A DNA stretch of 64,000 nucleotides, taken from assembly GCF_041886205.1 (NCBI RefSeq), contig NZ_CP169029.1. One strand, written 5' to 3'. Within the stretch, counting starts at the first letter, position 1. Each line of letters begins with the position of its first letter. Below the pieces are notes generated by a model that saw only the letters and a list, made by a program, of their open reading frames with translations, was not told the origin of the DNA and did not search any database. A program made the position numbers and the translations under genes. Shown here one piece after another: positions 1,643-53,830 of this stretch. The stretch is from Escherichia coli. Lineage in GTDB: Bacteria > Pseudomonadota > Gammaproteobacteria > Enterobacterales > Enterobacteriaceae.

Positions 1643-1653
1643 AAAACCCCCTG

Positions 1654-3159: not shown

Positions 3160-3449
3160 CCTTAACCTCTCGCTGTTGATACGTGACTGTTACCTGAACG
3201 TTATGTACTGAACACTATATATGAAACAAATATTCCATTTTAAGTTGAAATAAAATAAATAATGATTATTGTGATCAAGGATGGATTTTTATGTGAACAG
3301 CCAGCATCACTGACTCAGCCTGAGCTATTAGGAGTTTCGGGCGAGGAAATGACTGAAGCTTCTGTTTCATTTTTGCTGCCAGGTGGATGGCCAACATTTA
3401 AAAGACGCGGTTTTGCGTTTAGAATCATGAGACTGGATAGGGGGATAAC

Positions 3450-4310
3450 ATGACGACAGCAACCAGCCTGAACGAACTACAAAAGCAAATCCGCGATCGC
3501 TACGATAGCCTGAGCAAAAGGCTGCAGCAGGTCTCCCGCTATGTACTGGATAATACGAACAGTGTCGCGTTTGATACGGTTGCGGTCATAGCCGAACGTG
3601 CCGATGTTCCACCCTCTACACTGATTCGTTTTGCCAATGCCTTTGACTTCACCGGCTTCAACGAAATGAAACAGTTATTTCGTATGCACCTGGTGGAGGA
3701 AACCGCCAGCTACAGCGATCGTGCGCGACTGTTCCGCGAAATGGAGAGCGAAGCCGTACCTGAAACGCCGCTCGATATTTTGCAGGAGTTCGCCAGTTCG
3801 AACTCGCAGGCGCTGCAGCAGTTGGCTGCCCGCGCCGAACCGGAGATGCTGGAGCACGCCGTACAACTACTGGCCTACGCCGACACCATTTACATCGCCG
3901 GATTACGCAGATCCTTTAGCATTGCTGCTTATCTTACCTATGCTTTAAGCCACCTAGAGTGCCGCCCTATTCTGCTTGACGGGATGGGCGGCATGCTGCG
4001 CGAACAGATCAGCCGTATTAAGGCGTGCGACATTGTGGTGTCGATCAGTTTCTCGCCGTACGCGGAAGAAACGGTGATGGTCAGCAAAACCGCCGCCAGC
4101 GTCGGCGCTCGGCAGATTGTGATTACGGATAGCCAGATCAGCCCACTGGCAACGTTCAGTGATCTCTGCTTTGTGGTGAAAGAGGCTCAGGTGGACGCAT
4201 TTCGGTCTCAGTCGGCAACATTGTGTCTGGTGCAGTCGTTAGTGGTCGCGCTAGCTTACCGTTTAGGAGATAAAAAACATAATAATACCCAGGAAAACAG
4301 TAACCAATAA
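3450..4310 (+). CDS. RpiR/MurR-family transcriptional regulator (IolR-like repressor candidate)
   Basis: 286-aa ORF, N-terminal HTH and C-terminal SIS-type sugar-phosphate-binding region; divergent from the iol catabolic genes. Confidence 0.75.
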   Translation: MTTATSLNELQKQIRDRYDSLSKRLQQVSRYVLDNTNSVAFDTVAVIAERADVPPSTLIRFANAFDFTGFNEMKQLFRMHLVEETASYSDRARLFREMESEAVPETPLDILQEFASSNSQALQQLAARAEPEMLEHAVQLLAYADTIYIAGLRRSFSIAAYLTYALSHLECRPILLDGMGGMLREQISRIKACDIVVSISFSPYAEETVMVSKTAASVGARQIVITDSQISPLATFSDLCFVVKEAQVDAFRSQSATLCLVQSLVVALAYRLGDKKHNNTQENSNQ

Positions 4311-4505
4311 TAACCAATGAACTCCTCCCCCGAGTCCATATAAGAGTAAATGATTCGGTGCCAGTAGCGATACAGACTTCAGATTGAATATCAACTGTAC
4401 TGCTATCTCCCTAAAAGGTCATGCCCCATGTGAGCGTACAACGAGAGCCTTAATCCTTAATAGCGAAGAAGATTTCTCTAGTAGGTGGTAATGTAACCCA
4501 GATAT

Positions 4506-4898
4506 AACGGCTTCTTTAAACAGTTTATTTACCATCGTTTTCTTACCTAGCAGGCGCTGAAGTTCTTTAATTTTATTCATGGCGGCAGCAAGTTCAGAGG
4601 CCGGAATACCCTGTTCTTCGGCTGTCACAGTAGTGAAGCTTCCTTCAAGGTAATGATACGCCAGAGAAATAACTGGCTGGCAGCCACACCGTGTTGCCGG
4701 GCAACAAGGGAGACCGTCATTCCCGGTTCAAAACTCTGCTGAACAATAGCGATCTTTTCCTGTGTAGTACGCCGTCTGCGTTTCTCCGGTCCTAAGACAT
4801 CAATCATCTGCTCTCCAATGACTAGTCTAAAAACTAGTATTAAGACTATCACTTATTTAAGTGATACTGGTTGTCTGGAGATTCAGGGGGCCAGTCTA
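4506..4898 (-). mobile_element. insC: IS2 remnant (IRL plus degenerate, frameshifted insC/orfA; insD deleted)
   Basis: Reverse complement of 4869-4898 reads TAGACTGGCCCCCTGAATCTCCAGACAACC (IS2 left IR); ORFs 4625..4852 and 4419..4628 together match IS2 InsC ([49 protein letters not shown]... [23 protein letters not shown]) with a frameshift; similarity stops near 4506. Confidence 0.75.
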
Positions 4899-4900
4899 TA

Positions 4901-5115
4901 CACTACCTCAGGTAGATGATGAGATCAGATACAGGGATCAACTGACGGTGAGCGCAGGCCCGCGAGTGCCCTGATTTAGCGCTGGTTTTGCTTTCCCATC
5001 GAAGGGCCCATACATCATCACGCCCGCGAAACAGTCGACAAAATAACGCAACTTTCTCATCCGTGGATAATACGGAAACGCACTGCACAGGACTCTGCGG
5101 TTTACGTCACCATTC
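4901..5115 (-). pseudogene. N-terminal fragment of an unidentified island gene, cut off at the IS2 end
   Basis: Minus-strand ORF ...VQCVSVLSTDEKVALFCRLFRGRDDVWALRWESKTSAKSGHSRAC... ends with a stop 3 nt before the IS2 IRL; second frame ORF 4938..5132 overlaps. Confidence 0.3.
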
Positions 5116-5328
5116 AATCCCATAAGCTTCAAGTTATGTTTGCCCTCAGTGCAGCTAATTCATCACTGTCAGATTTATGAACCATAGTCGTTACCTGTAT
5201 CCGATCCACTGAGGCACCACGGCAGAAATTCGGGTCCCCTACACTGATGACAAAGCCGCCCTCTTCTGCCTATTAACTCAAGCACCTCCCAACAACTTAC
5301 AGAAACTTAATCCTAATACAACTGTAAT

Positions 5329-5892
5329 TCAGTTGTGTCGTGGTCGGCCGCGGTTGCTTTTTTCGGGAAGCCTGCTACGGCCCAGAATAATACCGTGTTC
5401 TTTCTGATCCTGTTTAGCCAGATAGCTAAGGGCGTAACGTAAGTTGTCTACCGCGGACTTATCACTATAGTGCATCACGTGATCGATACGCACCGGGTAT
5501 TTGTCTTTAGCCCGGCAAAGGTGAAAGTAACCCTCCCCTTCCGTGATCTGCCTCCAGATATCTCCCAGTTGCCTGGATATCTGATAAGAGTTCTTGTGAC
5601 GTTGCCCATCCAGGTAGCCGACAAAATGAATATGAAGCCCTTTGTTTTGTGTATATTCCATTACCCAGTAATATCCCGCCAACATCGATTGGGTTTCGCT
5701 AAGTAAGCGGTATATTTCCATACACATACTGTGCTTACAGCCATGACCAAAACTGGGCGTGTCTTTCCTGTAGGCAAAATCAATTCTGAAAGGTAACAGT
5801 TTAGAAAAACGTTGAAACAGACCTTCCATGTGTTCATTCACGTCTTTCAGAATCATGAAGTCCATTTCGTAATTGGGATTAGCATTATACAT
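5329..5892 (-). CDS. YagK/YfjJ-family (inovirus Gp2-like) cryptic-prophage protein
   Basis: 187-aa ORF in same orientation as alpA and the split gene, matching CP4-57-type gene order (alpA - yfjI-like - yfjJ-like); family assignment from recalled sequence similarity only. Confidence 0.4.
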   Translation of the reverse strand: MYNANPNYEMDFMILKDVNEHMEGLFQRFSKLLPFRIDFAYRKDTPSFGHGCKHSMCMEIYRLLSETQSMLAGYYWVMEYTQNKGLHIHFVGYLDGQRHKNSYQISRQLGDIWRQITEGEGYFHLCRAKDKYPVRIDHVMHYSDKSAVDNLRYALSYLAKQDQKEHGIILGRSRLPEKSNRGRPRHN

Positions 5893-6858
5893 TTTATAGT
5901 CCTTACTTTATAAAACTGACAGGAAAGTGGAATTACATAAATACTGAGAGTACAGAAACGCCGTACCGCGGCATTAATAAACGAGGTAACCAGCAGCACA
6001 GACAACCTGATAAAACTGTTTCGTATTACCTCATTACAGTAATAGGGTAATGATTCAGAATACAGTAAGACTCTCTTAAACTGAGGACCAGAACGAATTA
6101 CAATAAAAAACACACCTCATATAATTGAGTTTAAGAAAGCACCATTCAATTACTTACAGGAAATAATCTGATCTTCACAAAAGTCAGCATTGAATAGCCA
6201 CAGGCAACATCGCTATTAGTATTGCCGTACCATTAAGTAAAAACAGAGACTCTGCAGAGAGAGCCTACAGATATTTAATCTCACAATAAGAAGATTATTT
6301 CATACAGAAAAGATTATATTTACCCATAAACTGTAACGGAGCTATAACGTACGAACTAAAGACAATATACTCTAATAGTGTTCTGGTACGTAACTAGTAT
6401 TAAATACAAACCAGACATACATTCAGTGGATTAACTTTCTCAATATTACGCTATAAGTGTAGTAACATAATTTACACATAACTAAACTCCATACACCACC
6501 ACACTGTAGTGTATGGAGATATATGTATTACGCACATACAGAATACTTAGCATAAAGAGGAGTGATATTACGATAGAAAGAGATAAGACAACATAACAGA
6601 TAACATAACTCCCATTAATAATACTAATTAACCTAAATTATTTATTGAACACGAAAACAATGAAGGCCCCACCTCACCTCAGACTAAAGCCGACAATATC
6701 CTGAGCAACACTCTATCCAATAGTAAATAGTGGTTACACCAGTTATATTTACTGACTGACCTGTACCAGAGTTTTCTAATACAACGCTGACATGGTAAAG
6801 ACATTAGTCTCCTCCGCAAGTAGCAGAGGAGACTATATGTACTCAACGATTAAGTCGT

Positions 6859-7191
6859 TCAGAGGTCAAAGTTAGGTGCGACACACAACGTTTTTCCCTC
6901 AATAACCGGTACAACTCTGTTTTGTTCATACAGTAAATCCAGTAACCAGTTGATTTTATCCTTTTTCCGGAAACGGTTCGGACCACGCTGTAAAATGTCA
7001 TTTTTTTTCATACAGAGGATCCCCTTCTCAATACAATAGCTTTTTATCCAGTTGAAAAGTTCAAGCTCCTCTGGAATGAGTCGCACAGGTACGGTCAGGG
7101 CAGAGTTGTCAAAAGTTAACGGATTAGACAACCGCACATACTCATTACCGTACCATATTGCTAATTCTCTCGCCATTTCTGCAGTGTAAGG
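6859..7191 (-). pseudogene. C-terminal part of island gene split by IS186 (YfjI/DUF3987-like, putative replication-associated)
   Basis: ORF 6859..7176 is in frame with ORF 8530..9660 once IS186 and one TSD copy are removed. Confidence 0.6.
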
Positions 7192-7202
7192 GGAAATATC
7201 CC

Positions 7203-8541
7203 CATAAGCGCTAACTTAAGGGTTGTGGTATTACGCCTGATATGATTTAACGTGCCGATGAATTACTCTCACGATAACTGGTCAGCAATTCTGGCCCATA
7301 TTGGTAAGCCCGAAGAACTGGATACTTCGGCACGTAATGCCGGGGCTCTAACCCGCCGCCGCGAAATTCGTGATGCTGCAACTCTGCTACGTCTGGGGCT
7401 GGCTTACGGCCCCGGGGGGATGTCATTACGTGAAGTCACTGCATGGGCTCAGCTCCATGACGTTGCAACATTATCTGACGTGGCTCTCCTGAAGCGGCTG
7501 CGGAATGCCGCCGACTGGTTTGGCATACTTGCCGCACAAACACTTGCTGTACGCGCCGCAGTTACGGGTTGTACAAGCGGAAAGAGATTGCGTCTTGTCG
7601 ATGGAACAGCAATCAGTGCGCCCGGGGGCGGCAGCGCTGAATGGCGACTACATATGGGATATGATCCTCATACCTGTCAGTTCACTGATTTTGAGCTAAC
7701 CGACAGCAGAGACGCTGAACGGCTGGACCGATTTGCGCAAACGGCAGACGAGATACGCATTGCTGACCGGGGATTCGGTTCGCGTCCCGAATGTATCCGC
7801 TCACTTGCTTTTGGAGAAGCTGATTATATCGTCCGGGTTCACTGGCGAGGATTGCGCTGGTTAACTGCAGAAGGAATGCGCTTTGACATGATGGGTTTTC
7901 TGCGCGGGCTGGATTGCGGTAAGAACGGTGAAACCACTGTAATGATAGGCAATTCAGGTAATAAAAAAGCCGGAGCTCCCTTTCCGGCACGTCTCATTGC
8001 CGTATCACTTCCTCCCGAAAAAGCATTAATCAGTAAAACCCGACTGCTCAGCGAGAATCGTCGAAAAGGACGAGTAGTTCAGGCGGAAACGCTGGAAGCA
8101 GCGGGCCATGTGCTATTGCTAACATCATTACCGGAAGATGAATATTCAGCAGAGCAAGTGGCTGATTGTTACCGTCTGCGATGGCAAATTGAACTGGCTT
8201 TTAAGCGGCTCAAAAGTTTGCTGCACCTGGATGCTTTGCGTGCAAAGGAACCTGAACTCGCGAAAGCGTGGATATTTGCTAATCTACTCGCCGCATTTTT
8301 AATTGACGACATAATCCAGCCATCGCTGGATTTCCCCCCCAGAAGTGCCGGATCCGAAAAGAAGAACTAACTCGTTGTGGAGAATAACAAAAATGGTCAT
8401 CTGGAGCTTACAGGTGGCCATTCGTGGGACAGTATCCCTGACAGCCTACAAAACGCAATTGAAGAACGCGAGGCATCGTCTTAACGAGGCACCGAGGCGT
8501 CGCATTCTTCAGATGGTTCAACCCTTAAGTTAGCGCTTATG
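7203..8541 (+). mobile_element. IS186 (IS4 family), complete 1339-bp copy
   Basis: 23-bp terminal inverted repeats CATAAGCGCTAACTTAAGGGTTG at 7203-7225 and 8519-8541 (rc); flanked by 11-bp direct duplication GGAAATATCCC at 7192-7202 and 8542-8552 in a GGGG-N6-CCCC target. Confidence 0.85.
7252..8370 (+). CDS. insL: IS186 transposase (DDE, IS4 family)
   Basis: 372-aa ORF with C-terminal YRLRWQIELAFKRLK motif typical of IS4-family transposases; lies between the IS186 inverted repeats. Confidence 0.85.
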   Translation: MPMNYSHDNWSAILAHIGKPEELDTSARNAGALTRRREIRDAATLLRLGLAYGPGGMSLREVTAWAQLHDVATLSDVALLKRLRNAADWFGILAAQTLAVRAAVTGCTSGKRLRLVDGTAISAPGGGSAEWRLHMGYDPHTCQFTDFELTDSRDAERLDRFAQTADEIRIADRGFGSRPECIRSLAFGEADYIVRVHWRGLRWLTAEGMRFDMMGFLRGLDCGKNGETTVMIGNSGNKKAGAPFPARLIAVSLPPEKALISKTRLLSENRRKGRVVQAETLEAAGHVLLLTSLPEDEYSAEQVADCYRLRWQIELAFKRLKSLLHLDALRAKEPELAKAWIFANLLAAFLIDDIIQPSLDFPPRSAGSEKKN

Positions 8542-9660
8542 GGAAATATCCCCCTCTTCACCGCTCGAATGGTAAATAAGTCCTGCCAGTCTTGCCATAT
8601 ACTCTGCATTTTTAGCAGCATATTCCCGGCAATGTCTTAAAGGCCCCAATCCCCCCAGCTTCGATTCCACATCATTGTAATAATCCGTCCAGATTCTGGC
8701 AGCCTGAGGAGAAAAGTGAAGGCAACGTCGTTCACCACTCATCGCCAGACTTTCATCAATAAGCTCATTGATCCTCTCTTCAAACAAATCCTGATACTGT
8801 GATGAATAATTATCTCCGGTTATTATCCTTGTCCCCTGCGTTGATGTTGGTTGACACATCAAAAACCTTGCATGATGTCCTGACGTTTTCACAATTTCTT
8901 TTTTTCGCGTACAAAAACCTTTGTGGTAAACATCAGGCTGAATCATCACCGATATCGTCAGTCTTGGCTCCTTCAAATTAATTCCGGGAGATGATTTCCT
9001 GTCGATGAAAAGAGAACCTCCATCCCACAAAGTGTTAATAATTCCCAGTTTACTCATGGCCCGGCTGTCAAAAATTACCCCCCCTTCACTGGATACAAGA
9101 GCAAAAGAGCGATTGCTGTCGGAATAATATTTTAACATTCCCTCTATCGTTGTCTCATTAAAAATTGTTCGACGTATCTGCGGCGGAACAGGAGGTTTAT
9201 TCAGATGCGTTTCAAGCTCTGATTCTGTTGCCTTGTAATCTTTACCGGCACGAATCTCTTTATGAAATTTTGATTCCAGCGCTTTTTGTTTTTGCTCCCA
9301 TATTTCCTTTTCTGTACTGTAATTCTCAACCAGTTTCGCGTATTCTTCCGCCAGGGCTTCATCCCTGAGATAAAATGCTTTCATAAACACTTTATCCACG
9401 GTCGTTTTCCTTTCACCGGAATCAGCCAGAATCAGAGAGTAAAGATTAACAGGCCCATGTAAATTTCCAGGTCTGCACACGTCAATCTGATTCTGACAGG
9501 CAATTGAGATCGCTGTTAATGCGGATGTTGCCACCATAGCCAAAGGTGCCTGTGTATTTTTTTGAGTTTCAATTATTGCATTTCTCACCAGCGGTGGTAG
9601 TGCATATATCGGATAAGGATTTTCTGGTGCAAGTAAGCACATAAAAGCCTCTCTTTTCAT
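8542..9660 (-). pseudogene. N-terminal part of island gene split by IS186 (YfjI/DUF3987-like); as-is ORF reads into the IS to a stop at 8530
   Basis: 376-aa ORF 8530..9660; last codons (EEGDISHKR) are encoded by TSD and IS186 IR; reconstructed uninterrupted gene would be 483 aa. Confidence 0.6.
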
Positions 9661-9674
9661 TAATGGGTTAGTAA

Positions 9675-9717
9675 AATAGCAGCAAATCCCGCTACAATAG
9701 CGAAAATAGCTGCTATT
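9675..9717 (-). promoter_or_regulatory. Nested palindrome (AATAGCAGC-N24-GCTGCTATT with inner CGCTA-CAA-TAGCG) in leader of the split gene; candidate operator
   Basis: Seen directly, 15-57 nt upstream of start codon at 9660; repeated in the duplicated copy at 10141-10180. Confidence 0.4.
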
Positions 9718-9860
9718 CAGACCTGATGCTCTGAGAAATACAGAGCATTTGTAGATCTGATGTTTAATAAACCGATAAGGTTAATTCAGTGAAGACTGTA
9801 TTATTCACCACGAAATATCATTCATATTTCTCATTCTTAATACCTCCAGAAATTATTTCA

Positions 9861-10190
9861 CTAATACCTTTCCCCCGGTCTTTTCCCTTTCTCCAGAACC
9901 ATAGTGTAAATATTAACGGCCCCACGTAAATTTCCGGGACTGCATACGTCAACCTGATTCTGACAGGCAATTGACATCGCTGTTAATACTGACATTGCAA
10001 CCAGAGTCAGAGGTACTTGTTTATTGTATTGAGCTTTAATTATTGCCTTCCCTATCATTGATGGTCATGCATATACTGAATACGGCATATCCGGTTTGAT
10101 GTAAGACATAAATGCTTCCTTTTTCGTAATACGTTTCGGTTATAGCAGCAATTACCGCTACAATAGCGACAATAGCTGCTCTTTCAACAA
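9861..10190 (-). repeat. Partial tandem duplication of the 5' end and leader of the split island gene (truncated paralogous ORF 9861..10058)
   Basis: 9861-10190 aligns to 9380-9730 at roughly 85% identity by eye; ORF 9861..10058 (MIGKAIIKAQYNKQVPLTLVAMSVLTAMSIACQNQVDVCSPGNL...) parallels the N-terminus of ORF 8530..9660. Confidence 0.6.
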
Positions 10191-10284
10191 TGAATGCTGG
10201 AAATTCTGTTTATCAATTAAACTTCTGGATAAATTGTTCTTATGCTTCTTTTTCCTCCTGAGGTGATCACGTGATGACAAAAAC

Positions 10285-10593
10285 TTATCTGCTCATGGTC
10301 ATATCTGAAGAAAGCGTATGTCGCACTTCGTCATTAACACCTTTGACTGCTGATCTGGCAGGTACAGTATGTAAAGTAAGCCATTCGTCAATAGCTGATG
10401 AACGCCAGCCCACAGAACCACTACCAAGACGTACCGGCCTGGGGAAGGTTGCATCGTAGTATTTCGATAACGGATTCATTTTTTCGTAAATTGTCGAACG
10501 AGATATACCTAACAATTGGCTCAGTTCAGGCATCCGTAAGATGCGTGAAGGAGTCCAGCAGTATCCGGATTGATCTGGCATTTTATCCCCCAT
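10285..10593 (-). CDS. alpA: AlpA-family phage/island HTH regulator (start codon uncertain; alternatives at 10581 or 10665)
   Basis: Contains ILRMPELSQLLGISRSTIYEKMNP...YDATFPRPVRLGSGSVGWRSSAIDEWL, matching the AlpA signature (YDATFP...SVGW...EIDEWL). Confidence 0.6.
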   Translation of the reverse strand: MGDKMPDQSGYCWTPSRILRMPELSQLLGISRSTIYEKMNPLSKYYDATFPRPVRLGSGSVGWRSSAIDEWLTLHTVPARSAVKGVNDEVRHTLSSDMTMSR

Positions 10594-10789
10594 AGTGTGG
10601 TGAACTGTCGTTACAGTTTGTATTCCCCGGGTAAATTTGTCTGCGTAAAAAAATGGGCTGAGCAAAAAGACAATAAATAATTAAAAATCAATACGATAGA
10701 AAACAACAGCATTATTGTTATTTTACTTTCACCTTATCGCTGTCGATTCTCATTATCATTCATTGGTAAAAAACAGCAAAAGAGGCCCT

Positions 10790-11553
10790 GGTAATGACTC
10801 CAGTCAGTAGTACAGTGTTTTCGACAAATGAACCAATGGCTTTTCGTGAATTTCCAGGGAGCGTGAAAAGCAAATCGTTTTCCGGGCTGGTCGTTTGATG
10901 TGAGTACGAAGTGTCAGATTGTTGCACTCAATGCGCCGGGTAAATATCTTGCCGACAAGATGCTTATCCTGTGGCATTTCTCTGGTATAACTGCTCCGGT
11001 TGTCTCTGGTTATCATGCCTGTGGAGAATGGCTTCAGGAGTTCCGGCAACTCACGACATGTTTCATCAGTGCGAGGACCAAAAGTGTAAGCCAGCACACC
11101 TCCAGATTTGGTGTTATACGCATACCAGTGCCACTGCTGACGAGCTTTGTTTTCGACAAAACTCCATTGTTCATCAAGTTCGCAGATAAGCGTCACATCG
11201 GCACTGGCGACTGGAGATGTGGTTACTTTGCGTGGTGAGCGTTTTATAAAGTGAGAATGACGGTGTTGATATCCACCTTCAGCGTTCTGGAACTATCGCG
11301 AACCCCGACTCCGTTATGAACCATTTCAACAATTTGCTCTTTAATGCCTGGTTTTCGGGTTTCGTAGATGTAATTCAGTTGAAATACACACGTTTGCAGG
11401 ATTAGCACTGGAAACGCTCATGATCTGAGGTGCTGTGATCATAATGGTACACTTTATAGGAATTACAGCTGGGAGAATGTACTGTAACTGTTGCCATATG
11501 GTCTCCAGATACCAATAGAATACCACATTAATCTATCGTCAGAAGGCATCACC
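10790..11553 (-). mobile_element. Degenerate IS1-family element (764 bp; insA frameshifted, insB N-terminal region degenerate)
   Basis: Terminus GGTAATGACTCC at 10790; ORF 10804..11196 matches IS1 InsB C-terminal half (QWHWYAYNTKSGGVLAYTFGPRTDETCREL...KTICFSRSLEIHEK); manual translation upstream gives InsA-like MATVTVHSPSCNSYKVY... then, after a frameshift, LNYIYETRKPGIKEQIVEMVHNGVGVRDSSRTLKVDINTVILTL; other terminus ...GCATCACC at 11546-11553. Confidence 0.65.
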
Positions 11554-11693
11554 GGGGCCTTCTGACATAATCTGTTAATACGTGTACTATTACCCTGTTC
11601 AGAAAATATTGATTCAAAAATGAAAACCAGTTAACAGAAAAGCAAAATGATATAATGTTAAAATTTTATATAGTGCAATAAAAGGAGAATGTT

Positions 11694-13511
11694 ATGTATA
11701 ATTTTATCACTATAATGTATGATGTCTTTTCATGTTTTGGTGTTCTGGCTAAAAACCAGAATACCCGTGACATCCGAAATATTAAAAATTTTTCCTCACA
11801 TCAATATTCACTGGGCGACATGTTTGATGAATTAATAAACATTATTGATAAAGAACAAGTATTGAGTACAGAACAACGAAAAGTTATATTTAGGAGATAT
11901 GAAGATCTCTATGTTAAGCTAATGCACTATTCTGTTTTTACAGACCAAACACATCAAATAATAAAACAAAAATATTTTAATGACATTGTACCAATGATTC
12001 TCGCACTCGACATCAGGAACACATATCGCCCGGATAATGAGATGGCATTTTACTATCATATTCATTCTTTTCTCACTCAGATACCGGATAATGAGGATGA
12101 TATATATCATGCTGCAAGGACATATCTGCGAAATTACGTTAAGTTATGTTTATCCGGATACACACCAGCGAATGCGCATTTCAAAGATATCTTTGATGGC
12201 GTATATGAATTCATTCGTAATATTCGCAAAAACAGTACACCAGGAAAAACAAAACTTATCGCAACTATCAACACATGCAAAGAAACCTGTAAACATCTGC
12301 TTTATTTAAGTAATGAAGACAAGGAAAAAATAATTTCTGACTTAGATAAAGTTCAGGTTGCATGTTATTATCTCACTATATTACTGGCTTTCGAAAGACG
12401 AACTTCATTAACAAGCACCCTGGCAACTTTATATAAAATGCTGATAAGCGAAAGAGAAGTTTCAGAATATGAATGCCAGTTATTATATTTAACCAACCCA
12501 ATAGATGTAATGAATATACTGAACAAATACATATATTACTTTCCTAATGAAAACTCACCATTTTATACACTGAAAATTGACAGTGCATTATCGTGGGATG
12601 CCATTGACGCAATACGAGACTATAGTATTTCTGATATTTATCTTTATCCTGAACAAAAAACAATAAATTGTGTCGTTGAGATTGAAAACATTGTCTTTGG
12701 CGGTTACATTTATACATTGAACAACGGCGTCACATTACAAAACATAGAAAACACTTTAAAAGATTCTTCATGCCATTATGTCTTAAATGGCTATACAGAA
12801 TTTGTTAACTGTTTGATACAACTTACTTCAGGAAAGACTGAAAGTGTTCATCGCACCATCAATAAACTGAACTATGAGAAATTACCTTTTGGATTTATCA
12901 TTGCCGCGTTTGCTATACTAAAGATAGCATTTAAAATAAAATTCAGTAAAAATCATGTAAATATCCGAGCATTATTAAATGACATCAATTATTTTATGAC
13001 TTATCAGGGCGAGTCCATTAACCTTATTTCACTGGATCACGAATACCCAGAGTCCTGTCTTCAAAATGACACAAACACATATTTATTAGGAAGAGTAATA
13101 TTTCTGTATAACTCAATGATTTATAAGTTCATAAACTGTCAGGAACATGAAACCAATAACATTCACTCAGCTATGATAAATAACCTATTACAGGAAGTTG
13201 ATATAGCCCTTGGTAAAATAAATAACATTATAGACAGCAGAAACATATCAGCCCCCCATGAACTGGCAAATATTCTTACCCGCGAAAAAATACTTACAAC
13301 ACGGGAAAAAAAAGGAAACCTGATAAGCCTGTTTGATGGATTCACTTTATTCCATTGTGTTGGAATGATAACCTTTCTTATCCATTATCTCAGAACACCT
13401 GAAGAAAAAGTTGAAAATATATTTATGTTATATGGTGCAGATAAAAACAATAAACTACGCAGAAGACTGATTTATGACGCACTAGGAATAATTCAGTCTC
13501 AGCAGGAGTGA
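11694..13511 (+). CDS. Hypothetical 605-aa protein, AT-rich cargo gene in the int-alpA hotspot; no recognisable catalytic motif
   Basis: Long uninterrupted ORF in very AT-rich DNA; SD aaaggaga 5 nt upstream of ATG; TATAAT at 11651-11656; convergent with integrase. Confidence 0.7.
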   Translation: MYNFITIMYDVFSCFGVLAKNQNTRDIRNIKNFSSHQYSLGDMFDELINIIDKEQVLSTEQRKVIFRRYEDLYVKLMHYSVFTDQTHQIIKQKYFNDIVPMILALDIRNTYRPDNEMAFYYHIHSFLTQIPDNEDDIYHAARTYLRNYVKLCLSGYTPANAHFKDIFDGVYEFIRNIRKNSTPGKTKLIATINTCKETCKHLLYLSNEDKEKIISDLDKVQVACYYLTILLAFERRTSLTSTLATLYKMLISEREVSEYECQLLYLTNPIDVMNILNKYIYYFPNENSPFYTLKIDSALSWDAIDAIRDYSISDIYLYPEQKTINCVVEIENIVFGGYIYTLNNGVTLQNIENTLKDSSCHYVLNGYTEFVNCLIQLTSGKTESVHRTINKLNYEKLPFGFIIAAFAILKIAFKIKFSKNHVNIRALLNDINYFMTYQGESINLISLDHEYPESCLQNDTNTYLLGRVIFLYNSMIYKFINCQEHETNNIHSAMINNLLQEVDIALGKINNIIDSRNISAPHELANILTREKILTTREKKGNLISLFDGFTLFHCVGMITFLIHYLRTPEEKVENIFMLYGADKNNKLRRRLIYDALGIIQSQQE

Positions 13512-13698
13512 AACGTTAAAACAGGCAAATTGTTTTTTATAAATAGGAGATTGTTGAGTAATCCCCTGTTTATAAAAATACGCTTTCCTGACGATCTGAT
13601 AATTATCAGCTCAATACATTTGACATAAAAGCGGTTCCTTAATTACTACTGCCACGATCACATATCAAATCATGATCGTACAATATACATTTTCACTA

Positions 13699-14901
13699 TT
13701 ATTTATTCACAATTTGAGACATCACATAATCCGCCCATGCCTGCATCATCGGTACACGCTGCTCCAGTAGATCAGTACGATGATATGCCGCCTCAACCTT
13801 ATTTTTCAGCGTATGAGCGAGCGCCCTTTCCGCCAGATCCCGCGAATACCCCTGTTCACTACACCAGTCCCTGAATGTTGAGCGAAAACCATGTGCCGTG
13901 GCAACTCGCCCCGGAATGTCACTGACGGCTTTCTTTTTACGCAGAAAACTTGTCAACACCATATCGGAAAGGATCTGCTGCTTTCTGGGTGAAGGGAACA
14001 CCAGTTCATCATGCAGGCCACGTATATTTTCCAGAATGTAAATAGCCTGCCGGGATAAAGGAACACGATGCTGTAGCCTGGCTTTCATTCTTTCTGCAGG
14101 TATAGTCCATACCCGCTTATGAAAATCAATTTCAGCCCAGCGCATTCCCCTGGCTTCGCCCGAGCGAGTTGCTGTAAGTATCACCATTAATAACAGTGCG
14201 CGGGTAACATTATAAGGTTCATCACTATACACACTGGTCGCCACAAAAAGCGGTAACTGCCTCCAGGGCATTGCTGGTTGGTGTTCATCACGTCCTCTTG
14301 TCTGCTGAGGAAGCAAATGGTCAACCACATCAACAGGATTTGCCACACAAAAACCGTGCGCCCATCCCCACTGCATAACAACATGAATGCGCTGTTTAAC
14401 CCGGCTTGCCGTTTCTGACAAGGTTAACCAGACTGGACGCAGTGTTTCTGCCACGTCCGCAGCCGTAATCGAATCCAGCGTTTTTGCTCCCAGTTGAGGA
14501 AACGCGTAATTCTCAAGCGTCGATAACCACTGCCTTACATGCTTTGGATTTTCCCATCCTGGAGACAATTCTGCATGTACACGCCTGGCTGCATCGGCAA
14601 ATGTTGGGATAACGACTTTCTCAGATTCAGCCTTTTTAATCTCCAGAGGATCATCACCTGCAGCAAGTTGCTCTCGCATTATCCGGGCAGTACGTGCAGC
14701 TTCAGCAATACTGACCTCTGGGTAAGTTCCCAATCCAGCATTACGTCTTTTTTGTGTCACCGGACTTACATAACGAAAAACCCATTTCCCCCGCCCCTTT
14801 ACTGAAGAAGGATGAAGGGTCAGTCCGGTAATTCCCCCATGGGGCAATGGTTTGTCATCAGGTTTGATATGTCTTGCTTTCGTATCCGTCAATACTGCCA
14901 T
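13699..14901 (-). CDS. int: Tyrosine site-specific integrase, P4/CP4-57 IntA-like
   Basis: 400-aa ORF; N-terminal LTDTKARHIKP...FRYVSP arm-binding-type region and C-terminal catalytic motifs (HGFRSTFRDW, LAH, Y in EAAYHR). Confidence 0.9.
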   Translation of the reverse strand: MAVLTDTKARHIKPDDKPLPHGGITGLTLHPSSVKGRGKWVFRYVSPVTQKRRNAGLGTYPEVSIAEAARTARIMREQLAAGDDPLEIKKAESEKVVIPTFADAARRVHAELSPGWENPKHVRQWLSTLENYAFPQLGAKTLDSITAADVAETLRPVWLTLSETASRVKQRIHVVMQWGWAHGFCVANPVDVVDHLLPQQTRGRDEHQPAMPWRQLPLFVATSVYSDEPYNVTRALLLMVILTATRSGEARGMRWAEIDFHKRVWTIPAERMKARLQHRVPLSRQAIYILENIRGLHDELVFPSPRKQQILSDMVLTSFLRKKKAVSDIPGRVATAHGFRSTFRDWCSEQGYSRDLAERALAHTLKNKVEAAYHRTDLLEQRVPMMQAWADYVMSQIVNK

Positions 14902-15044
14902 ACGCTAATTCCCGTCACTCTGGTATGCCATCCAGTATGCCATTAGTCTCTCGCTTCACTAAGAATACATTAGATAATATCGGACAACAAAAAGTGTAAT
15001 ACATTGTTTATAATGAAATTATATAACACCCCTGGATTAAGTCA

Positions 15045-15525
15045 GATTTATTTCAGGCGGTCCCCCTCACCGCCATATTTAAAGAAGAGCTCGTACGAAA
15101 GTACGGGCTTTTTTTTCGTATATTGCACACACCGGGGGGATGAGAATCCCCGACCGGGGGTCGACAACTGGCGGCAGCCAGTTGGACAGACCGTGAACGC
15201 AGTGAGCGGGCTGCCCGCAGGGCGAGCGAAGCGAGTCAATCCCCCCCTCACCGCCATATTTAAAGAAGAGCTCGTACGAAAGTACGGGCTTTTTTTTTCG
15301 TATATTGCACACACCGGGGGGATGAGAATCCCCGACCGGGGGTCGACAACTGGCGACAGCCAGTTGGACAGACCGTGAACGCAGTGAGCGGGCTGCCCGC
15401 AGGGCGAGCGAAGCGAGTCAATCCCCCCCTCACCGCCATATTTAAAGAAGAGCTCGTACGAAAGTACGGGCTTTTTTTCGTGTATTGCACACACCGGGGG
15501 GATGAGAATCCCCGACCGGGATACT
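15045..15525. repeat. Tandem direct repeat array, unit about 181 bp, about 2.7 copies
   Basis: Units begin near 15061, 15241 and 15421 with near-identical sequence; each has a terminator-like hairpin plus T-run (gagctcgtacgaaagtacgggcttttttt) and hairpins GGGGAT-GAGA-ATCCCC and CAACTGGC-N4-GCCAGTTG (loop differs between copies, stem conserved). Confidence 0.9.
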
Positions 15526-15528
15526 TAG

Positions 15529-16215
15529 TTAATGCAACGGTTCACTCTTTGTCGCCGCGACTAATGGGCGAATTTTGTCACGAGTCTCCCAGACCGGAGG
15601 GATTTCCTCCAATTTAGTGACAGAAGCTCGTACAAAAGGCACTCGTGCAAGAGTCATAATCGTATCCAACCAACGGTCACGAATAATGCGATCCGCCCTT
15701 TCATGACTCGGGTCATCCAGCTCAATAACACAGACTATTTTATTGTTCTTCTTTGAAACCAGAACATAATCCATTGCCATGCCATTATAAATTGCAAAGA
15801 AACGCTTTCTTTCTTCTTCGCTAAACTCAGGTTGTTCTGGATAGTTGAGCAAGCGCCCCAGAGAGACCTGGCAATGGATATGACAATAATGTCCAAACCA
15901 TTTCTCCAGATTATCGAAATACATTTTTTCACAACGCGTGATTAACCACTCTTTTCCTTCCAATAAAATACCTTCGGCAACCATTCCCTGAAATAACTCA
16001 TCTCGTTCTTGCCAACGAGAGTCACGATAGGTTTTCTGCGGTATATAGGTCCTTGTCGACGACTTAGCAGCAGGGGAAGTTGCAGATGAAGGGACTGGTT
16101 GCGATTTAGCGATGATTACCGATGAGGCAACTTTTCGGAGTGTCAATTTTCTGGCAACAGCAAAACCGGCGACAAATGCAATTGTCAAACAAGTTACAAA
16201 AGCCATAAAGCTCAT
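15529..16215 (-). CDS. Membrane-anchored protein with DUF2726-like (nuclease-fold) C-terminal domain
   Basis: 228-aa ORF: N-terminal hydrophobic helix, Ser/Pro-rich linker, C-terminal globular domain; family call from recalled similarity only. Confidence 0.45.
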   Translation of the reverse strand: MSFMAFVTCLTIAFVAGFAVARKLTLRKVASSVIIAKSQPVPSSATSPAAKSSTRTYIPQKTYRDSRWQERDELFQGMVAEGILLEGKEWLITRCEKMYFDNLEKWFGHYCHIHCQVSLGRLLNYPEQPEFSEEERKRFFAIYNGMAMDYVLVSKKNNKIVCVIELDDPSHERADRIIRDRWLDTIMTLARVPFVRASVTKLEEIPPVWETRDKIRPLVAATKSEPLH

Positions 16216-16761
16216 AATTAATTTTCACTTATCCATGTTGATTATATTTCATTACCAATGTTACTCGCTGAAGCGTGTTACATGCCAACAATGCAACGAT
16301 CAATATATAGTTAGTATCATGTTTTGATTATTACAACCATCCCTATTTTGCCATTGCAGCTTGCCTTCCACAAAAAAAATAACAACAAACAATATTAGCC
16401 AAAGAATTAATTAAGATTAACCTTGCATTTATAATATTATCCCTAAAGAATAAATCAGAGGAATATATTCGGTGTTAATCAGTCAGTCAAATTATGGCCC
16501 ATTGTTGATTAAACCTCATAAGCAAAATTGGCACCAGATCTCCTGTACAGGTTGAATGGCCGAAAAAAGATAGGCAGATGCTCGCTTTTTTGGCTTCTGG
16601 AAGAAAAACTCTCCGCACTGGCAGTATTACACTGGTCTGATGCTATGACGAAAAATGCCTGGTAAGAGTATCTAAACCAGACTCCAGTTCAGCTTATCAA
16701 CACGCTCAAAGTCGCCCCCCTGAACGCTAACCTGAAGTTAAAGTCTTTGCTGTTAATGAAA

Positions 16762-16790
16762 TAAAACAAAGCCCGGTTCGCCCGGGCTCT
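16762..16790 (-). terminator. Intrinsic terminator downstream of phoH
   Basis: GC hairpin AGCCCGG-TTCG-CCCGGGCT followed on the minus strand by a T-rich run. Confidence 0.5.
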
Positions 16791-16805
16791 GCACCGATAA
16801 CACAC

Positions 16806-17729
16806 TTAACTGTATGCATGCAGCGTACGTTGGCAAAGTGCCGAACGTACGCAATCCTCTTTACCGAACCGGACGATCCCAACCATTTCATCTTCTTCGA
16901 AACGTTCCAGCGCGTCACTTAATCCGGAGCACACGCCGCGAGGCAAATCGCATTGCGTGATATCACCGTTGACGATAACTGTCACGTTCTCCCCGAGGCG
17001 GGTTAAAAACATTTTCATTTGCGCGGCAGTCACATTCTGCGCCTCGTCAAGAATGACGACTGCATTTTCAAAGGTACGTCCACGCATATAGGCGAAAGGC
17101 GCAATTTCCACCTTCCCTATTTCCGGTCGCAGGCAGTACTGCATAAAGGAAGCCCCTAAGCGCCGGACCAGCACGTCGTAAACCGGGCGAAAATAGGGAG
17201 CAAACTTTTCTGCGATATCTCCAGGTAAGAAGCCAAGATCTTCATCGGCTTGCAGAACTGGACGGGTGACGATAATCCTGTCGACATCCTTATGTATCAG
17301 GGCCTCTGCCGCTTTTGCTGCGCTGATCCAGGTTTTTCCGCACCCGGCTTCGCCCGTGGCGAATATCAGCTGCTTACTCTCAATAGCCTTCAGATAGTGC
17401 AATTGCGCTTCATTACGCGCGAGGATGGGCGAAGTATCGCGACTGTCGCGGGCCATACCAATGGCTTCTACGCCGCTCATTTGCACAAGCGAGGTGACCG
17501 ATTCTTCTTCACGCTGCTTATGGCTGCGCGAATCCCGTCTCAGCACACGTTTTGCCTCGCGACGAGCTTTGATCACTGCTTTTTGTCTTCCCATGGAGAG
17601 CACCTTGAGTTGTTTGTATTCATCACACGCGCCGTTGGCAGCGCGATTATGCGCACGAACATCAGAGGGTTGGCTTCCTTGTAAGCCATAGTTTGCTTTT
17701 GGATAAAATGCCGAAAAACGGCTACGCAC
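16806..17729 (-). CDS. phoH: PhoH ATPase core ORF; N-terminal extension appears frameshifted, so the full gene would span 16806..17869
   Basis: ORF with Walker A GEAGCGKT; separate upstream ORF 17573..17869 (MVTSYTGHVLDNQ...) with SD ggag overlaps it in another frame. Confidence 0.8.
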   Translation of the reverse strand: MRSRFSAFYPKANYGLQGSQPSDVRAHNRAANGACDEYKQLKVLSMGRQKAVIKARREAKRVLRRDSRSHKQREEESVTSLVQMSGVEAIGMARDSRDTSPILARNEAQLHYLKAIESKQLIFATGEAGCGKTWISAAKAAEALIHKDVDRIIVTRPVLQADEDLGFLPGDIAEKFAPYFRPVYDVLVRRLGASFMQYCLRPEIGKVEIAPFAYMRGRTFENAVVILDEAQNVTAAQMKMFLTRLGENVTVIVNGDITQCDLPRGVCSGLSDALERFEEDEMVGIVRFGKEDCVRSALCQRTLHAYS

Positions 17730-18070: not shown

Positions 18071-18400
18071 GCATCAGGCATCAGTGCACGATCGCCGGAT
18101 GCGGCGTAAACGCCTTATCCAGCCTACCAAACCCGCACCGATTATAGGCATGATAAGACGCGCAAGCGTCGCATCAGGCATCAGTGCACGATCGCCGGAT
18201 GCGGCGTAAACGCCTTATCCAGCCTACCAAACCCGCACCGATTGTAGGCATGATAAGACGCGCAAGCGTCGCATCAGGCATCAGCGCACGAACGCCGGAT
18301 GCGGCATCAACGCCTTATCCCGCCTACCGAACCCGCACCGATTGTAGGCATGATAAGACGCGCAAGCGTCGCATCAGGCATCAGCGCACGAATGCCTTAT
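18071..18400. repeat. BIME/REP array (three units of about 110 bp containing GCCGGATGCGGCGTAAACGCCTTATCC)
   Basis: Three near-identical copies of canonical REP palindromes between phoH promoter and efeB. Confidence 0.85.
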
Positions 18401-50983: not shown

Positions 50984-51156
50984 GGTCAGTGCGTATTTGC
51001 AGCGCGACGTTATCAAAGGTGATCATCGTCGATTTACAAAAAATACACTTAGCGCCCAAAGGGTTTCGCTCCGTCACATCGAATGCCGATGTGCGGTACT
51101 GTGAACCATGACAACATGGACAGCGGAAATGGAGATGTTGAGTAATAATGGCAACC

Positions 51157-51369
51157 TTAGAGCGTAACAACGTTCGCTGCCGCGGGGCCACGTTGCCCCT
51201 GCTCAATAGAAAATTCAACTTTCTGATTTTCGTTCAGCGTGCGGAATTCATTGCTCTGGATGGCGGTGAAATGGACGAAAACGTCTTTGCTGCCATCATC
51301 AGGAGTGATAAAGCCAAAACCTTTATCTGCGTTAAACCATTTTACTAAACCAGTCATTTTATTAGACAT
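51157..51369 (-). CDS. cspG: Cold shock protein CspG
   Basis: 70-aa CSD protein ([21 protein letters not shown]). Confidence 0.9.
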
Positions 51370-51654
51370 ATTTTACTTCCTTCATTTTGGGCCTTTCGGC
51401 AAACAGGGCTTTAATACAGAAACTACTTAGTGTTCAGGAGAGAGACTCAAAAGAAGGGGATAATGCCTGATAATGAGAACTGCTTTAGTAAACTACTTTG
51501 TATGCTGTCTGTCTTTCAAACCGACGCAGCTATTAACGCATGATAATTGAGATTAAGCAAATTTTATTTTAGCCGTCCGGCGGTCTTAAATATCGCTGGC
51601 TTTATTTTATTAACCCCGTATAGTGCAGCGCAGTATTTTCAGTAAGGAATTTGT

Positions 51655-53518: not shown

Positions 53519-53830
53519 GTGAGTCACCTCTGACTGAGAGTTTACTCACTTAGCCGCGTGTCCACTATTGCTGGGTAAGATCAGCTGCTGGCGCTGTCGG
53601 CACGGCGACAGTTGTCGGTGTGGCAACGGCTGTTGGTGTGGCGACGTTGGCAGTTGTTGCAGCAAATGACAGTGGCGATGGCGGTTCTCATAACACCTCA
53701 ACCACCACGTCCACTACACGCTAATACTGCTTTAACGCGTCGAAATTAAAGTTAAATGATACCCGGTTGCGATATTCGTACCGGGCTTTAGAGATTTGCA
53801 TTTTTTTAATTAACCTTTCAAGGATTAAAG

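What the first reader, a model, noticed from the sequence alone, without database searches (positions are those of the whole stretch)
15529..16215. Membrane-anchored DUF2726-like (nuclease-fold) protein next to the repeat array
The gene has a single N-terminal TM helix, a Ser/Pro-rich linker and a C-terminal domain I recall as DUF2726, a restriction-endonuclease-like fold. It sits at the island edge directly beside the tandem repeats. Such proteins recur in defence and mobile-element contexts; this one may act with the island or be a stand-alone effector.
Basis: inference. Interest (0 to 1): 0.4.

Follow-up and report, generated by a model that had tools for sequence, protein, structure and literature searches.

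The report
Membrane-tethered Vsr-like nuclease gene beside phoH
This is a real, conserved E. coli/Salmonella gene for a nuclease-fold protein tethered to the inside of the cell membrane; it does not belong to the neighbouring genomic island, its function has never been tested, and its relatives ride on conjugative elements, filamentous phages and secretion-system clusters, which suggests (without proving) that it cuts DNA entering the cell.

Summary

The gene touches the repeat array but lies outside the integrase island. Island-free strains (IAI1, C4, 980-2), E. albertii and Salmonella all have phoH-DUF2726-serX, so this is an old resident of that interval. About 81% of E. coli carry pgaABCD-dgcT-ycdU there instead.

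The TM anchor is typical of the family (125/158 homologues). Charge bias puts the domain in the cytoplasm in 111/111.

Close relatives sit as single genes in variable slots:
- PFGI-1-type integrative conjugative elements (ICEs), after traG
- a T6SS tssA/tssF slot
- Vibrio inoviruses
- the tra region of a plasmid

No defence-database match and no experimental data exist. My best guess (about 0.35) is a membrane-tethered nuclease that cuts nucleic acid entering at the inner membrane, analogous to SNIPE. It is a new member of a known but uncharacterised family; moderate interest.

The parts
15529..16215 (-). Complete gene, 228 aa: TM-anchored DUF2726 (Vsr-like nuclease fold) protein; RefSeq WP_000009225-type 'DUF2726 domain-containing protein'
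   Evidence: ORF; Pfam PF10881 E 1.7e-18; RefSeq annotation of the same gene; GC 43.5%, GC3 40% against phoH 52.6%/54%
16138..16209 (-). Codons for residues 3-26: single N-terminal transmembrane helix (signal-anchor; N-terminus out, rest in the cytoplasm)
   Evidence: Hydropathy 2.3; AF2 helix 3-26, pLDDT 93-96; 0 K/R before the helix and 4 K/R within 15 residues after it; the same bias in 111/111 TM-bearing homologues
16006..16137 (-). Codons for residues 27-70: disordered Ser/Pro/Thr/Ala-rich, basic linker
   Evidence: Composition; pLDDT 57-72 with no secondary structure; fastest-evolving part, dN 0.56 against Salmonella; length and sequence vary in alignment A1
15547..16005 (-). Codons for residues 71-223: pre-domain helix (the SRWE.RDELFxGM motif spans residues 66-78) plus the alpha-beta-beta-beta-alpha-beta nuclease core. 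Candidate catalytic residues are E96, D149, E165, D167(D168), H171, D180; R176 and R179 are also conserved
16216..16762 (-). AT-rich (36% GC) non-coding leader/promoter region of the gene. Together with the gene (15521-16762) it forms the 1.24-kb segment that K-12 replaces with pgaDCBA-dgcT-IS3-ymdE-ycdU
   Evidence: Boundaries from blastn against K-12; GC; promoter-like sites on the minus strand at 16490-16462 (10/12) and 16354-16327 are consensus matches only
16766..16792 (-). phoH intrinsic terminator, which separates phoH from the DUF2726 gene, so the gene should be transcribed on its own
   Evidence: 11-bp stem, 7 GC pairs, T-run; shared with K-12
15062..15520 (+). Neighbour, not part of the gene: 2.5 tandem 182-bp units, each carrying the last 19 nt of tRNA-Ser(GGA) serX and its terminator ('RtT sRNA' in RefSeq). 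The array marks the chromosomal side of the island junction
   Evidence: TRF; exact serX 3' end at 15238 and 15420; comparison with IAI1 serX; island junction at 15061/15062
13699..14901 (-). Neighbour, not part: P4-type tyrosine integrase at the right end of the serX island
   Evidence: Pfam Arm-DNA-bind_3, Phage_int_M, Phage_integrase; absent from IAI1, C4 and 980-2, which still carry the DUF2726 gene

Best explanation
The gene encodes a small bitopic inner-membrane protein. A short N-terminal stub faces the periplasm, followed by one TM helix and a roughly 45-residue flexible basic linker. A compact Vsr-like (restriction-endonuclease superfamily, Pfam DUF2726) domain faces the cytoplasm, with a complete E..D..ExD..H..D metal-dependent active site.

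Shown here: architecture, fold, conservation of the catalytic residues, purifying selection, chromosomal (non-island) residence, and the family's contexts.

Inferred: it is an active nuclease held at the membrane, away from the nucleoid. It would cut nucleic acid, most likely DNA, that appears at the inner membrane as it enters the cell by phage injection, conjugative transfer or filamentous-phage entry. That would make it a single-gene entry barrier or exclusion factor. The logic is that of SNIPE, built on a different nuclease fold.

The copy in the E. coli/Salmonella phoH-serX interval is an old, vertically kept representative of a module that otherwise travels in variable slots of ICEs, T6SS clusters, inoviruses and plasmids.
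For: - Architecture and fold.
- Active site: E96, E165, H171 and D180 are invariant; D149, D167, D168, R176 and R179 are >=90% conserved in 110 homologues down to about 20% identity. They occupy, in order, the positions of Vsr E25/D51/F62-equivalent acidic/H64/H69/D97 as described for I-Bth0305I.
- Topology: K+R averages 4.72 in the 15 residues after the TM and 0.22 before it, with C>N in 111/111. 125/158 homologues of >=140 aa have an N-terminal hydrophobic segment.
- Selection: dN/dS 0.05 for the domain against Salmonella; the full ORF is intact in Salmonella.
- Autonomy: the phoH terminator lies upstream, the gene has its own AT-rich leader, and there is no conserved partner gene.
- Contexts of relatives with the same architecture (36-54% id):
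  - six ICE loci after TraG_N in TIGR03755/6/7-type elements;
  - the T6SS tssA/tssF slot in Rahnella, Citrobacter, Pantoea and metagenomes. The orthologous E. coli cluster has this slot empty or filled by LprI, so the gene is cargo, not core.
- More distant TM-bearing relatives: Vibrio inoviruses, a Vibrio plasmid tra region, and IncI2/IncX4 mcr-1 contexts according to PMC12915395 (no TM information is given there).
- Precedent: SNIPE has an N-out single TM with a cytoplasmic nuclease, cleaves phage DNA during injection, and is toxic without its TM.
- Some relatives carry a C-terminal topoisomerase-type zinc ribbon, suggesting DNA binding (the Pfam scores are below the cutoff).
Against: - No experiment on any DUF2726 protein was found. 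The 8 open-access papers holding the term include classification/domain surveys, two transposon-screen hit lists and mcr-1 context descriptions.
- No PADLOC model matches this protein or its ICE, T6SS or inovirus relatives.
- The orthologue is near-fixed at one chromosomal site in Salmonella and stable in 19% of E. coli. That is more core-like than typical defence genes.
- The Xenorhabdus relative sits among ordinary metabolic genes.
- The protein lacks anything like SNIPE's DUF4041 DNA-binding/targeting domain. A 45-residue tether may not be enough to protect the chromosome.
- Vsr itself is a sequence- and mismatch-specific nickase, not a degradative nuclease.
- The active-site mapping is by motif order, not by 3D superposition.
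Confidence: 0.35

Rival explanations
1. It is an accessory component of envelope-spanning machines (T6SS or the ICE type IV secretion system), for example processing DNA or regulating assembly at the membrane. The phoH-adjacent copy would be an orphan relic of such a cluster.
For: It is embedded in operon-like spacing between tssA and tssF in four or more genera. There it diverges at about the rate of TssA/VgrG (65% vs 59-66% identity). It holds a fixed position after TraG_N in six ICE loci. The serX site in Salmonella is also the SPI-19 T6SS insertion site.
Against: The orthologous E. coli T6SS cluster has tssA and tssF 33 bp apart with no such gene, or an LprI gene instead, so the machine does not need it. 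The same module occurs in inoviruses and at the phoH-serX site with no secretion genes. No T6SS or ICE neighbour protein has a remnant in the window. The phoH, T6SS and ICE clades are separate, with unresolved deep nodes.
Confidence: 0.17
2. It is a membrane-localised RNase (a RAP/Vsr-like RNA-cleaving or RNA-binding domain) acting on membrane-proximal transcripts or incoming RNA.
Against: The top hit and the sequence motif are those of the DNA enzymes Vsr, I-Bth0305I and DUF559. Some relatives carry a topoisomerase-type DNA-binding zinc ribbon. All contexts involve DNA-transfer elements.
Confidence: 0.1
3. It is a toxin: a T6SS-delivered or addiction-type nuclease effector kept harmless by membrane sequestration.
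For: It is a nuclease fold located in T6SS clusters and next to vgrG in Erwinia. Toxin-antitoxin pairs are nearby in ICEs. TM-less SNIPE is toxic.
Against: No adjacent immunity or antitoxin gene is conserved in any context. There is no PAAR/Rhs/MIX/adaptor fusion. The N-terminal segment has reverse signal-anchor features with an acidic or neutral N-terminus, which is not a secretion signal. The chromosomal copy is stably maintained as a single gene.
Confidence: 0.08
4. It is a housekeeping DNA repair or processing nuclease (Vsr-like nicking at lesions or mismatches) that happens to be membrane-bound.
For: Vsr is the closest solved structure. The gene is fixed next to phoH in Salmonella and under purifying selection.
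Against: 81% of E. coli lack it and carry pga at that site instead. Its low GC (43.5%, GC3 40%) is atypical. There is no Pfam Vsr hit and no sequence hit to any PDB chain. Relatives are carried by ICEs, inoviruses and plasmids.
Confidence: 0.06
5. One reading: it is cargo or an effector of the adjacent integrase island and acts with it.
For: It lies 630 bp from the integrase gene and directly beside the repeats.
Against: It lies outside the att junction (15061/15062). It is present with identical boundaries in island-free strains and in other species.
Confidence: 0.02

Closest known systems
Pfam DUF2726 (PF10881), PD-(D/E)xK clan; grouped with Vsr/DUF559 by Steczkiewicz et al. 2012 (PMC3424549)
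   Same: The protein scores 67 bits against the family model (cutoff 24.7). It has the same conserved IELDDxSH..R..RD block. The family is described as of unknown function, with mobile elements nearby in some taxa.
   Different: This Enterobacterales subfamily adds a conserved pre-domain motif (SRWE.RDELFxGM, residues 66-78) and a linker outside the Pfam model. The TM anchor and its cytoplasmic orientation, documented here for the family, are not mentioned in the passages of the papers I read.
Vsr endonuclease (1cw0), the EDxHD homing endonuclease I-Bth0305I (3r3p) and DUF559 (3hrl)
   Different: There is no detectable sequence similarity (no PDB hit at E<=10). None of Vsr's four zinc ligands (Cys66, His71, Cys73, Cys117; my recollection, not checked) could be mapped, and there is no Pfam Vsr hit. 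NUMOD/HTH DNA-binding domains are absent. D167 replaces Vsr His64. The protein is membrane-anchored.
SNIPE (PD-lambda-1 type), a membrane-bound nuclease that cleaves phage DNA during injection (bioRxiv 10.1101/2025.11.03.685801)
   Same: It is a single gene. It has one N-terminal TM with the N-terminus out and a cytoplasmic nuclease at the C-terminus. The N-terminal region varies while the nuclease is conserved.
   Different: SNIPE's nuclease is GIY-YIG, not the Vsr/PD-(D/E)xK fold. SNIPE has a DUF4041 DNA-binding/targeting domain and is about twice as long. No Pfam or PADLOC relationship exists. Function here is untested.
RAP domain (FASTK family, mitoribosomal RAP proteins)
   Different: Eukaryotic organellar RNA-binding proteins; low identity (6-10%); different context.
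NERD domain
   Same: Also a PD-(D/E)xK-superfamily nuclease-related domain (per the Pfam clan; my recollection is that NERD proteins often carry N-terminal TM segments, not checked).
   Different: No NERD hit in the Pfam scan, even at E<=1.

Membership tests
Pfam DUF2726 (PF10881) | Score above the curated gathering threshold of the family HMM | tested here: met
   67 bits against 24.7, E 1.7e-18, profile positions 3-116 of 126
PD-(D/E)xK / restriction-endonuclease-like superfamily | alpha-beta-beta-beta-alpha-beta core fold | tested here: met
PD-(D/E)xK / restriction-endonuclease-like superfamily | Canonical motif: Asp on strand 2 and (D/E)-x-K on strand 3 | tested here: not met
   Strand 3 reads E165-L-D167, and no conserved Lys is present at that position in 110 sequences. 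The site is the Vsr-type variant with His171.
Vsr-like / EDxHD active-site variant | Conserved Glu (helix 1), Asp (strand 2), His general base and downstream Asp, in that order | tested here: met
   E96, D149, H171 and D180 are invariant or >=90% conserved. Correspondence to Vsr E25/D51/H69/D97 is inferred from order and spacing; no 3D superposition of side chains was possible.
Vsr mismatch endonuclease proper (Pfam Vsr, PF03852) | Sequence membership | tested here: not met
   No Pfam Vsr hit at E<=1. No PDB sequence hit with the protein or the 110-sequence profile at E<=10.
Vsr mismatch endonuclease proper (Pfam Vsr, PF03852) | Structural zinc site and T:G mismatch recognition | not tested
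   No zinc-site mapping or substrate assay was done; both would need a side-chain superposition on 1cw0 or biochemistry.
SNIPE | DUF4041 domain plus GIY-YIG nuclease | tested here: not met
   Neither domain is found by Pfam, and no PADLOC model matches
SNIPE | Single N-terminal TM, N-out / nuclease-in topology | tested here: met
   Prediction only: positive-inside bias in 111/111, AF2 helix. Not tested experimentally.
SNIPE | Cleaves phage DNA during injection; TM-less form is toxic | not testable with these tools
   Needs phage challenge and expression experiments
Known anti-phage defence systems (PADLOC-DB 2.0.0) | Match to any defence protein model | tested here: not met
   0 families for the query and for the T6SS, ICE and inovirus relatives
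NERD (PF08378) | Pfam NERD match | tested here: not met
   Only DUF2726 is reported at E<=1
Cargo of the adjacent serX island | Lies between the island's att sites and is absent when the island is absent | tested here: not met
   The junction is at 15061/15062. The gene is present in island-free IAI1, C4 and 980-2 with the same boundary.
T6SS effector | Delivery determinant (PAAR/VgrG/Hcp fusion, MIX, adaptor) and adjacent immunity gene | tested here: not met
   Single-domain protein. It is flanked directly by tssA and tssF, or by phoH and the repeats, with no small conserved partner ORF.

The most novel reading that the evidence does not exclude
TM-anchored DUF2726 proteins are a widespread, so far unrecognised class of single-gene entry barriers. 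They would be Vsr-fold nucleases held on the cytoplasmic face of the inner membrane that cut DNA as it crosses the membrane during phage injection, conjugation or inovirus entry. ICEs, inoviruses and plasmids would use them for exclusion of competitors, and E. coli/Salmonella would keep a domesticated chromosomal copy. This would be a second, independently evolved fold implementing the SNIPE principle of telling self from non-self by location.
Probability: 0.3. Interest if true: 0.7.

Novelty: new member of a known kind. Interest (0 to 1): 0.4.

Why it matters
No DUF2726 protein has been characterised, yet the family is large: 920 representatives at 50% clustering matched this one query. This branch is present in essentially all the Salmonella loci sampled and in about a fifth of E. 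coli.

If the membrane tether really confines a nuclease to DNA entering the cell, location-based self/non-self discrimination, shown so far for SNIPE, would be a general strategy that has evolved more than once. It could also explain exclusion by ICEs and filamentous phages. The system is easy to test because K-12 naturally lacks the gene.

A more modest result is that the phoH-serX interval has two nearly complementary states in E. coli. One carries this gene, the other the pga biofilm operon. That is useful for interpreting strain differences in PNAG (poly-N-acetylglucosamine) production.

Tried and rejected
2. NCBIfam and PADLOC gave no hits.
3. I looked for a link to phoH. The adjacency is conserved only within Escherichia/Salmonella and a terminator separates the genes, so I reject functional coupling.
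4. I looked for remnants of ICE or T6SS neighbour genes in the window with tblastn and found none. I therefore cannot claim the chromosomal copy is an ICE or T6SS relic.
5. I first thought the T6SS embedding meant a new T6SS component. I rejected this after finding the orthologous E. coli cluster with an empty or LprI-filled tssA/tssF slot.
6. I suspected that most Salmonella carry an N-terminally truncated (TM-less) gene because of the 151-aa P0009. This is a mis-called start; the full ORF is intact.
7. I guessed STM1127 as the LT2 locus tag. That was wrong: STM1127 is a MurR-type regulator.
8. tblastn against plasmids returned only mislabelled chromosomes plus one Vibrio plasmid. The mcr-1-linked DUF2726 of IncI2/IncX4 is too distant to be found that way.
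9. Literature searches for a membrane-anchored nuclease defence by phrase and for a T6SS link found nothing specific.
10. Rfam's gathering scan does not call the repeats RtT, although RefSeq does.

Full report
1. OBSERVATION

The minus-strand ORF 15529-16215 (ATG start, 228 aa) exists exactly as reported.
- Pfam assigns residues 90-205 to DUF2726 (PF10881) at E 1.7e-18, 67 bits against a cutoff of 24.7. No other family appears even at E<=1.
- NCBIfam and PADLOC give nothing.
- Residues 3-21 are the most hydrophobic 19-mer (Kyte-Doolittle 2.3).
- AlphaFold2, run with a 110-sequence alignment, gives mean pLDDT 87.7. It predicts a helix at 3-26, an unstructured segment at 27-70 (pLDDT 57-72) and a confident alpha/beta domain at 71-223 (pLDDT 92-98).
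- The linker is rich in Ser, Pro, Thr and Ala (22 of 40 residues) and is basic.
- The stop codon lies 8 nt from the end of a 2.5-copy, 182-bp tandem array at 15062-15520.
All descriptive elements of the finding are therefore correct.

2. WHERE IT IS

The window is E. coli chromosome. To the right lie phoH (16806-17729, minus strand), efeBOU, putP and putA. To the left lies a P4-type integrase (13699-14901) at the end of an island that fills window 1-15061.

The tandem units are not anonymous repeats. Each contains the last 19 nt of tRNA-Ser(GGA) serX, followed by the serX terminator. RefSeq labels the units 'RtT sRNA'.

The island/chromosome junction is at 15061/15062, where homology to island-free genomes begins within the serX 3'-end core. 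The DUF2726 gene lies beyond the repeats, on the chromosomal side.

Strains without any island have serX, 0.5-2.5 repeat units, the same gene with the same truncated-repeat boundary, and then phoH. This holds for IAI1, C4 and 980-2. So the gene is not island cargo.

The gene occurs once per genome in 1049 of 5426 complete E. coli genomes at 95.8-99.9% identity.

K-12 has the 10.9-kb pgaDCBA-dgcT-IS3-ymdE-ycdU segment in place of window 15521-16762. That segment occurs in 4403 of 5426 genomes. The two states are therefore nearly complementary.

E. albertii (87% aa) and Salmonella (71% aa) keep the same order, phoH-DUF2726-serX. In Salmonella the protein is listed in thousands of assembly blocks. 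It is usually mis-called as 151 aa, although the 219-aa ORF with the TM helix is intact.

Synonymous divergence matches that of phoH within E. coli (dS 0.03-0.08 against 0.05-0.07) and is saturated against Salmonella for both genes. dN/dS is 0.28-0.42 within E. coli. Against Salmonella it is 0.05 for the domain, while the linker evolves fast.

GC is low: 43.5% overall and 40% at third positions, against 52.6% and 54% for phoH. The 550-bp leader is 36% GC. A strong phoH terminator precedes the leader.

My reading is that this is an old, probably once-acquired, independently transcribed gene. It has been inherited vertically in this interval since before the Escherichia/Salmonella split and was lost from most E. 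coli.

3. WHAT THE PROTEIN IS

Steczkiewicz et al. list DUF2726 both in the Vsr/DUF559 group of the PD-(D/E)xK superfamily and as a separate entry of unknown function. Anantharaman et al. call it a restriction-endonuclease-fold DNase found fused to an AbiJ N-terminal domain (AbiJ-NTD3).

In 110 homologues down to about 20% identity, E96, E165, H171 and D180 are invariant. D149, D167, D168, R176 and R179 are at least 90% conserved. In order and strand register these fit the Vsr/I-Bth0305I active site: Vsr E25, D51, the acidic residue at the F62 position, H64, H69 and D97. This mapping is inferred; I could not superpose side chains. The canonical lysine of PD-(D/E)xK is absent.

4. THE MEMBRANE ANCHOR IS A FAMILY TRAIT

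A full HMMER scan found 920 cluster representatives at E<=0.001.
- Of the 158 retrieved homologues of at least 140 aa, 125 have an N-terminal hydrophobic 19-mer.
- In all 111 that could be scored, the 15 residues after the helix carry more Lys+Arg than those before it (mean 4.72 against 0.22).
- The N-terminus is typically Met-Asp or Met-Ser, which is not a signal peptide.
By the positive-inside rule the nuclease domain is cytoplasmic, tethered to the inner membrane by a flexible linker.

5. CONTEXTS OF RELATIVES

Relatives with the same architecture (36-54% identity) fall into well-supported clades.
- **phoH clade:** described in section 2.
- **ICE clades:** six loci from E. coli, Pectobacterium cacticida, P. 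brasiliense, Dickeya and two metagenomes. The gene follows DUF1525-TraU-x-x-TraG_N and precedes an Integrase_1 gene, with different toxin-antitoxin pairs nearby. NCBIfam identifies the neighbours as TIGR03755/6/7 integrating conjugative element proteins.
- **T6SS clade:** Rahnella, Citrobacter, Pantoea and metagenomes. The gene sits between tssA and tssF in a PAAR-x-tssM-tssA-X-tssF-tssG-tssJ-vgrG-VRR_NUC cluster. The orthologous E. coli cluster has tssA and tssF 33 bp apart, or an LprI gene in that slot. The slot is therefore variable and the gene is cargo, not a core part.
- **Other close relatives:** an Erwinia copy lies upstream of an orphan vgrG. A Xenorhabdus copy lies among metabolic genes.
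- **More distant TM-bearing relatives:** Vibrio inoviruses, after the secretin gene, belonging to phrog_14167. A Vibrio plasmid tra region also carries one.
- **From the literature:** a review-type analysis reports a DUF2726 gene beside mcr-1 on IncI2/IncX4 plasmids.
- **Fusions:** some relatives carry a C-terminal topoisomerase-type zinc ribbon (below the Pfam cutoff) or two DUF2726 domains.
- **Partner genes:** no conserved partner gene accompanies the module.

6. HOW IT MOST LIKELY WORKS

Shown here: a self-contained, single-gene module encoding a cytoplasm-facing, membrane-tethered Vsr-fold domain with an intact active site. It is under purifying selection and is repeatedly carried in variable slots of elements that move DNA across the inner membrane.

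Inferred: it is an active nuclease whose tether keeps it from the nucleoid, so that it acts on nucleic acid arriving at the membrane. That would make it an entry barrier or exclusion factor.

The only experimentally studied analogue I found is SNIPE. It has the same topology but a GIY-YIG nuclease plus a DUF4041 domain. It cleaves lambda DNA during injection and becomes toxic when its TM is removed.

I put about 0.85 on 'membrane-tethered nuclease-fold enzyme with an intact catalytic site' and about 0.35 on the entry-barrier role.

Arguments against the entry-barrier role:
- no defence-database match;
- no experimental data on any family member beyond two transposon-screen hit lists;
- a core-like distribution in Salmonella;
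- no targeting domain;
- possible RNA substrates (RAP similarity).

Rivals are listed separately: secretion-machine accessory, RNase, toxin, repair enzyme, island cargo. Island cargo is refuted.

7. COMPARISON AND NOVELTY

The gene is a bona fide member of Pfam DUF2726 and is already annotated as such in RefSeq. It is not a new kind of object. It is not a member of Vsr proper, SNIPE, NERD or any PADLOC system.

What is new here:
- the family-wide TM anchor and its cytoplasmic orientation;
- the Vsr/EDxHD-type site;
- the ancestral phoH-serX residence and its near-complementarity with pga;
- the recurrent ICE, T6SS-slot and inovirus contexts.

The functional hypothesis is testable in K-12, which lacks the gene.

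Verdict: observation confirmed; interpretation partly supported; new member of a known, uncharacterised family; moderate interest (0.4).

Noticed in passing
window 15062-15520: The 'tandem repeats' are 2.5 units of 182 bp, each made of the last 19 nt of tRNA-Ser(GGA) serX plus its terminator and about 130 nt more. This parallels the tyrT/RtT repeats. RefSeq calls them RtT sRNA, but the Rfam gathering scan does not. Copy number varies from about 0.5 (C4) to about 3.4 (K-12). Each unit duplicates the attB core used by the P4-type integrase. No tRNA gene is found anywhere in the 64-kb window, so serX itself lies beyond the left end.
   Followed up: partly
window 11694-13511 (+): A 605-aa ORF of 27-35% GC lies immediately inside the island next to the integrase. 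It has no Pfam or PADLOC hit. The same ORF sits in the same position in O26:H11 and pig-strain islands.
   Followed up: partly
window 15521-16762 versus K-12 (L014 3101-13961): The phoH-serX interval has two nearly complementary states in E. coli. One is this 1.24-kb DUF2726 segment (1049 genomes). The other is the 10.9-kb pgaDCBA-dgcT-IS3-ymdE-ycdU segment (4403 genomes). The window has no pga DNA, only an IS3 copy at 52322-53592. Strains of this type may lack PNAG synthesis unless pga lies elsewhere.
   Followed up: partly
L047 5277-8693; L048 777-5464; L028 6187-10280: In a T6SS cluster shared by E. coli, Citrobacter, Rahnella and Pantoea, the tssA/tssF junction is a variable cargo slot. 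It is empty (33 bp) in E. coli MEW, holds an LprI-family gene in E. coli GPEC484-624, and holds a TM-DUF2726 gene in the other genera.
   Followed up: yes
L042-L044 about 5800-6456: The Salmonella orthologue is widely annotated as a 151-aa protein starting at an internal Met. The upstream in-frame 68 codons, including the TM helix, are intact, so the true product is 219 aa.
   Followed up: yes
L045 8132-8773 (Vibrio phage 10N.261.55.E6_PE002): Filamentous phages (Tubulavirales) of Vibrio cyclitrophicus carry a TM-anchored DUF2726 gene just after the G4P secretin gene (phrog_14167, function unknown). It is a candidate superinfection-exclusion gene.
   Followed up: partly
window 16811-17004 (+), 18147-18324 (-), 51103-51525 (-): Rfam gathering-level hits: Ysr251 antisense to the 3' end of phoH, two naRNA4 (REP-derived) copies between phoH and efeB, and a cspA thermoregulator.
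   Followed up: no
L022 (MAG labelled Collinsella sp.) and L027 (labelled Chryseobacterium sp.): A 1.45-kb 'Collinsella' MAG contig encodes the E. coli-type protein at 93% identity. A 'Chryseobacterium' assembly shows the same ORF layout and the same tblastn statistics as the Citrobacter T6SS locus L028. Both are probably contamination or mislabelling in the public records.
   Followed up: no
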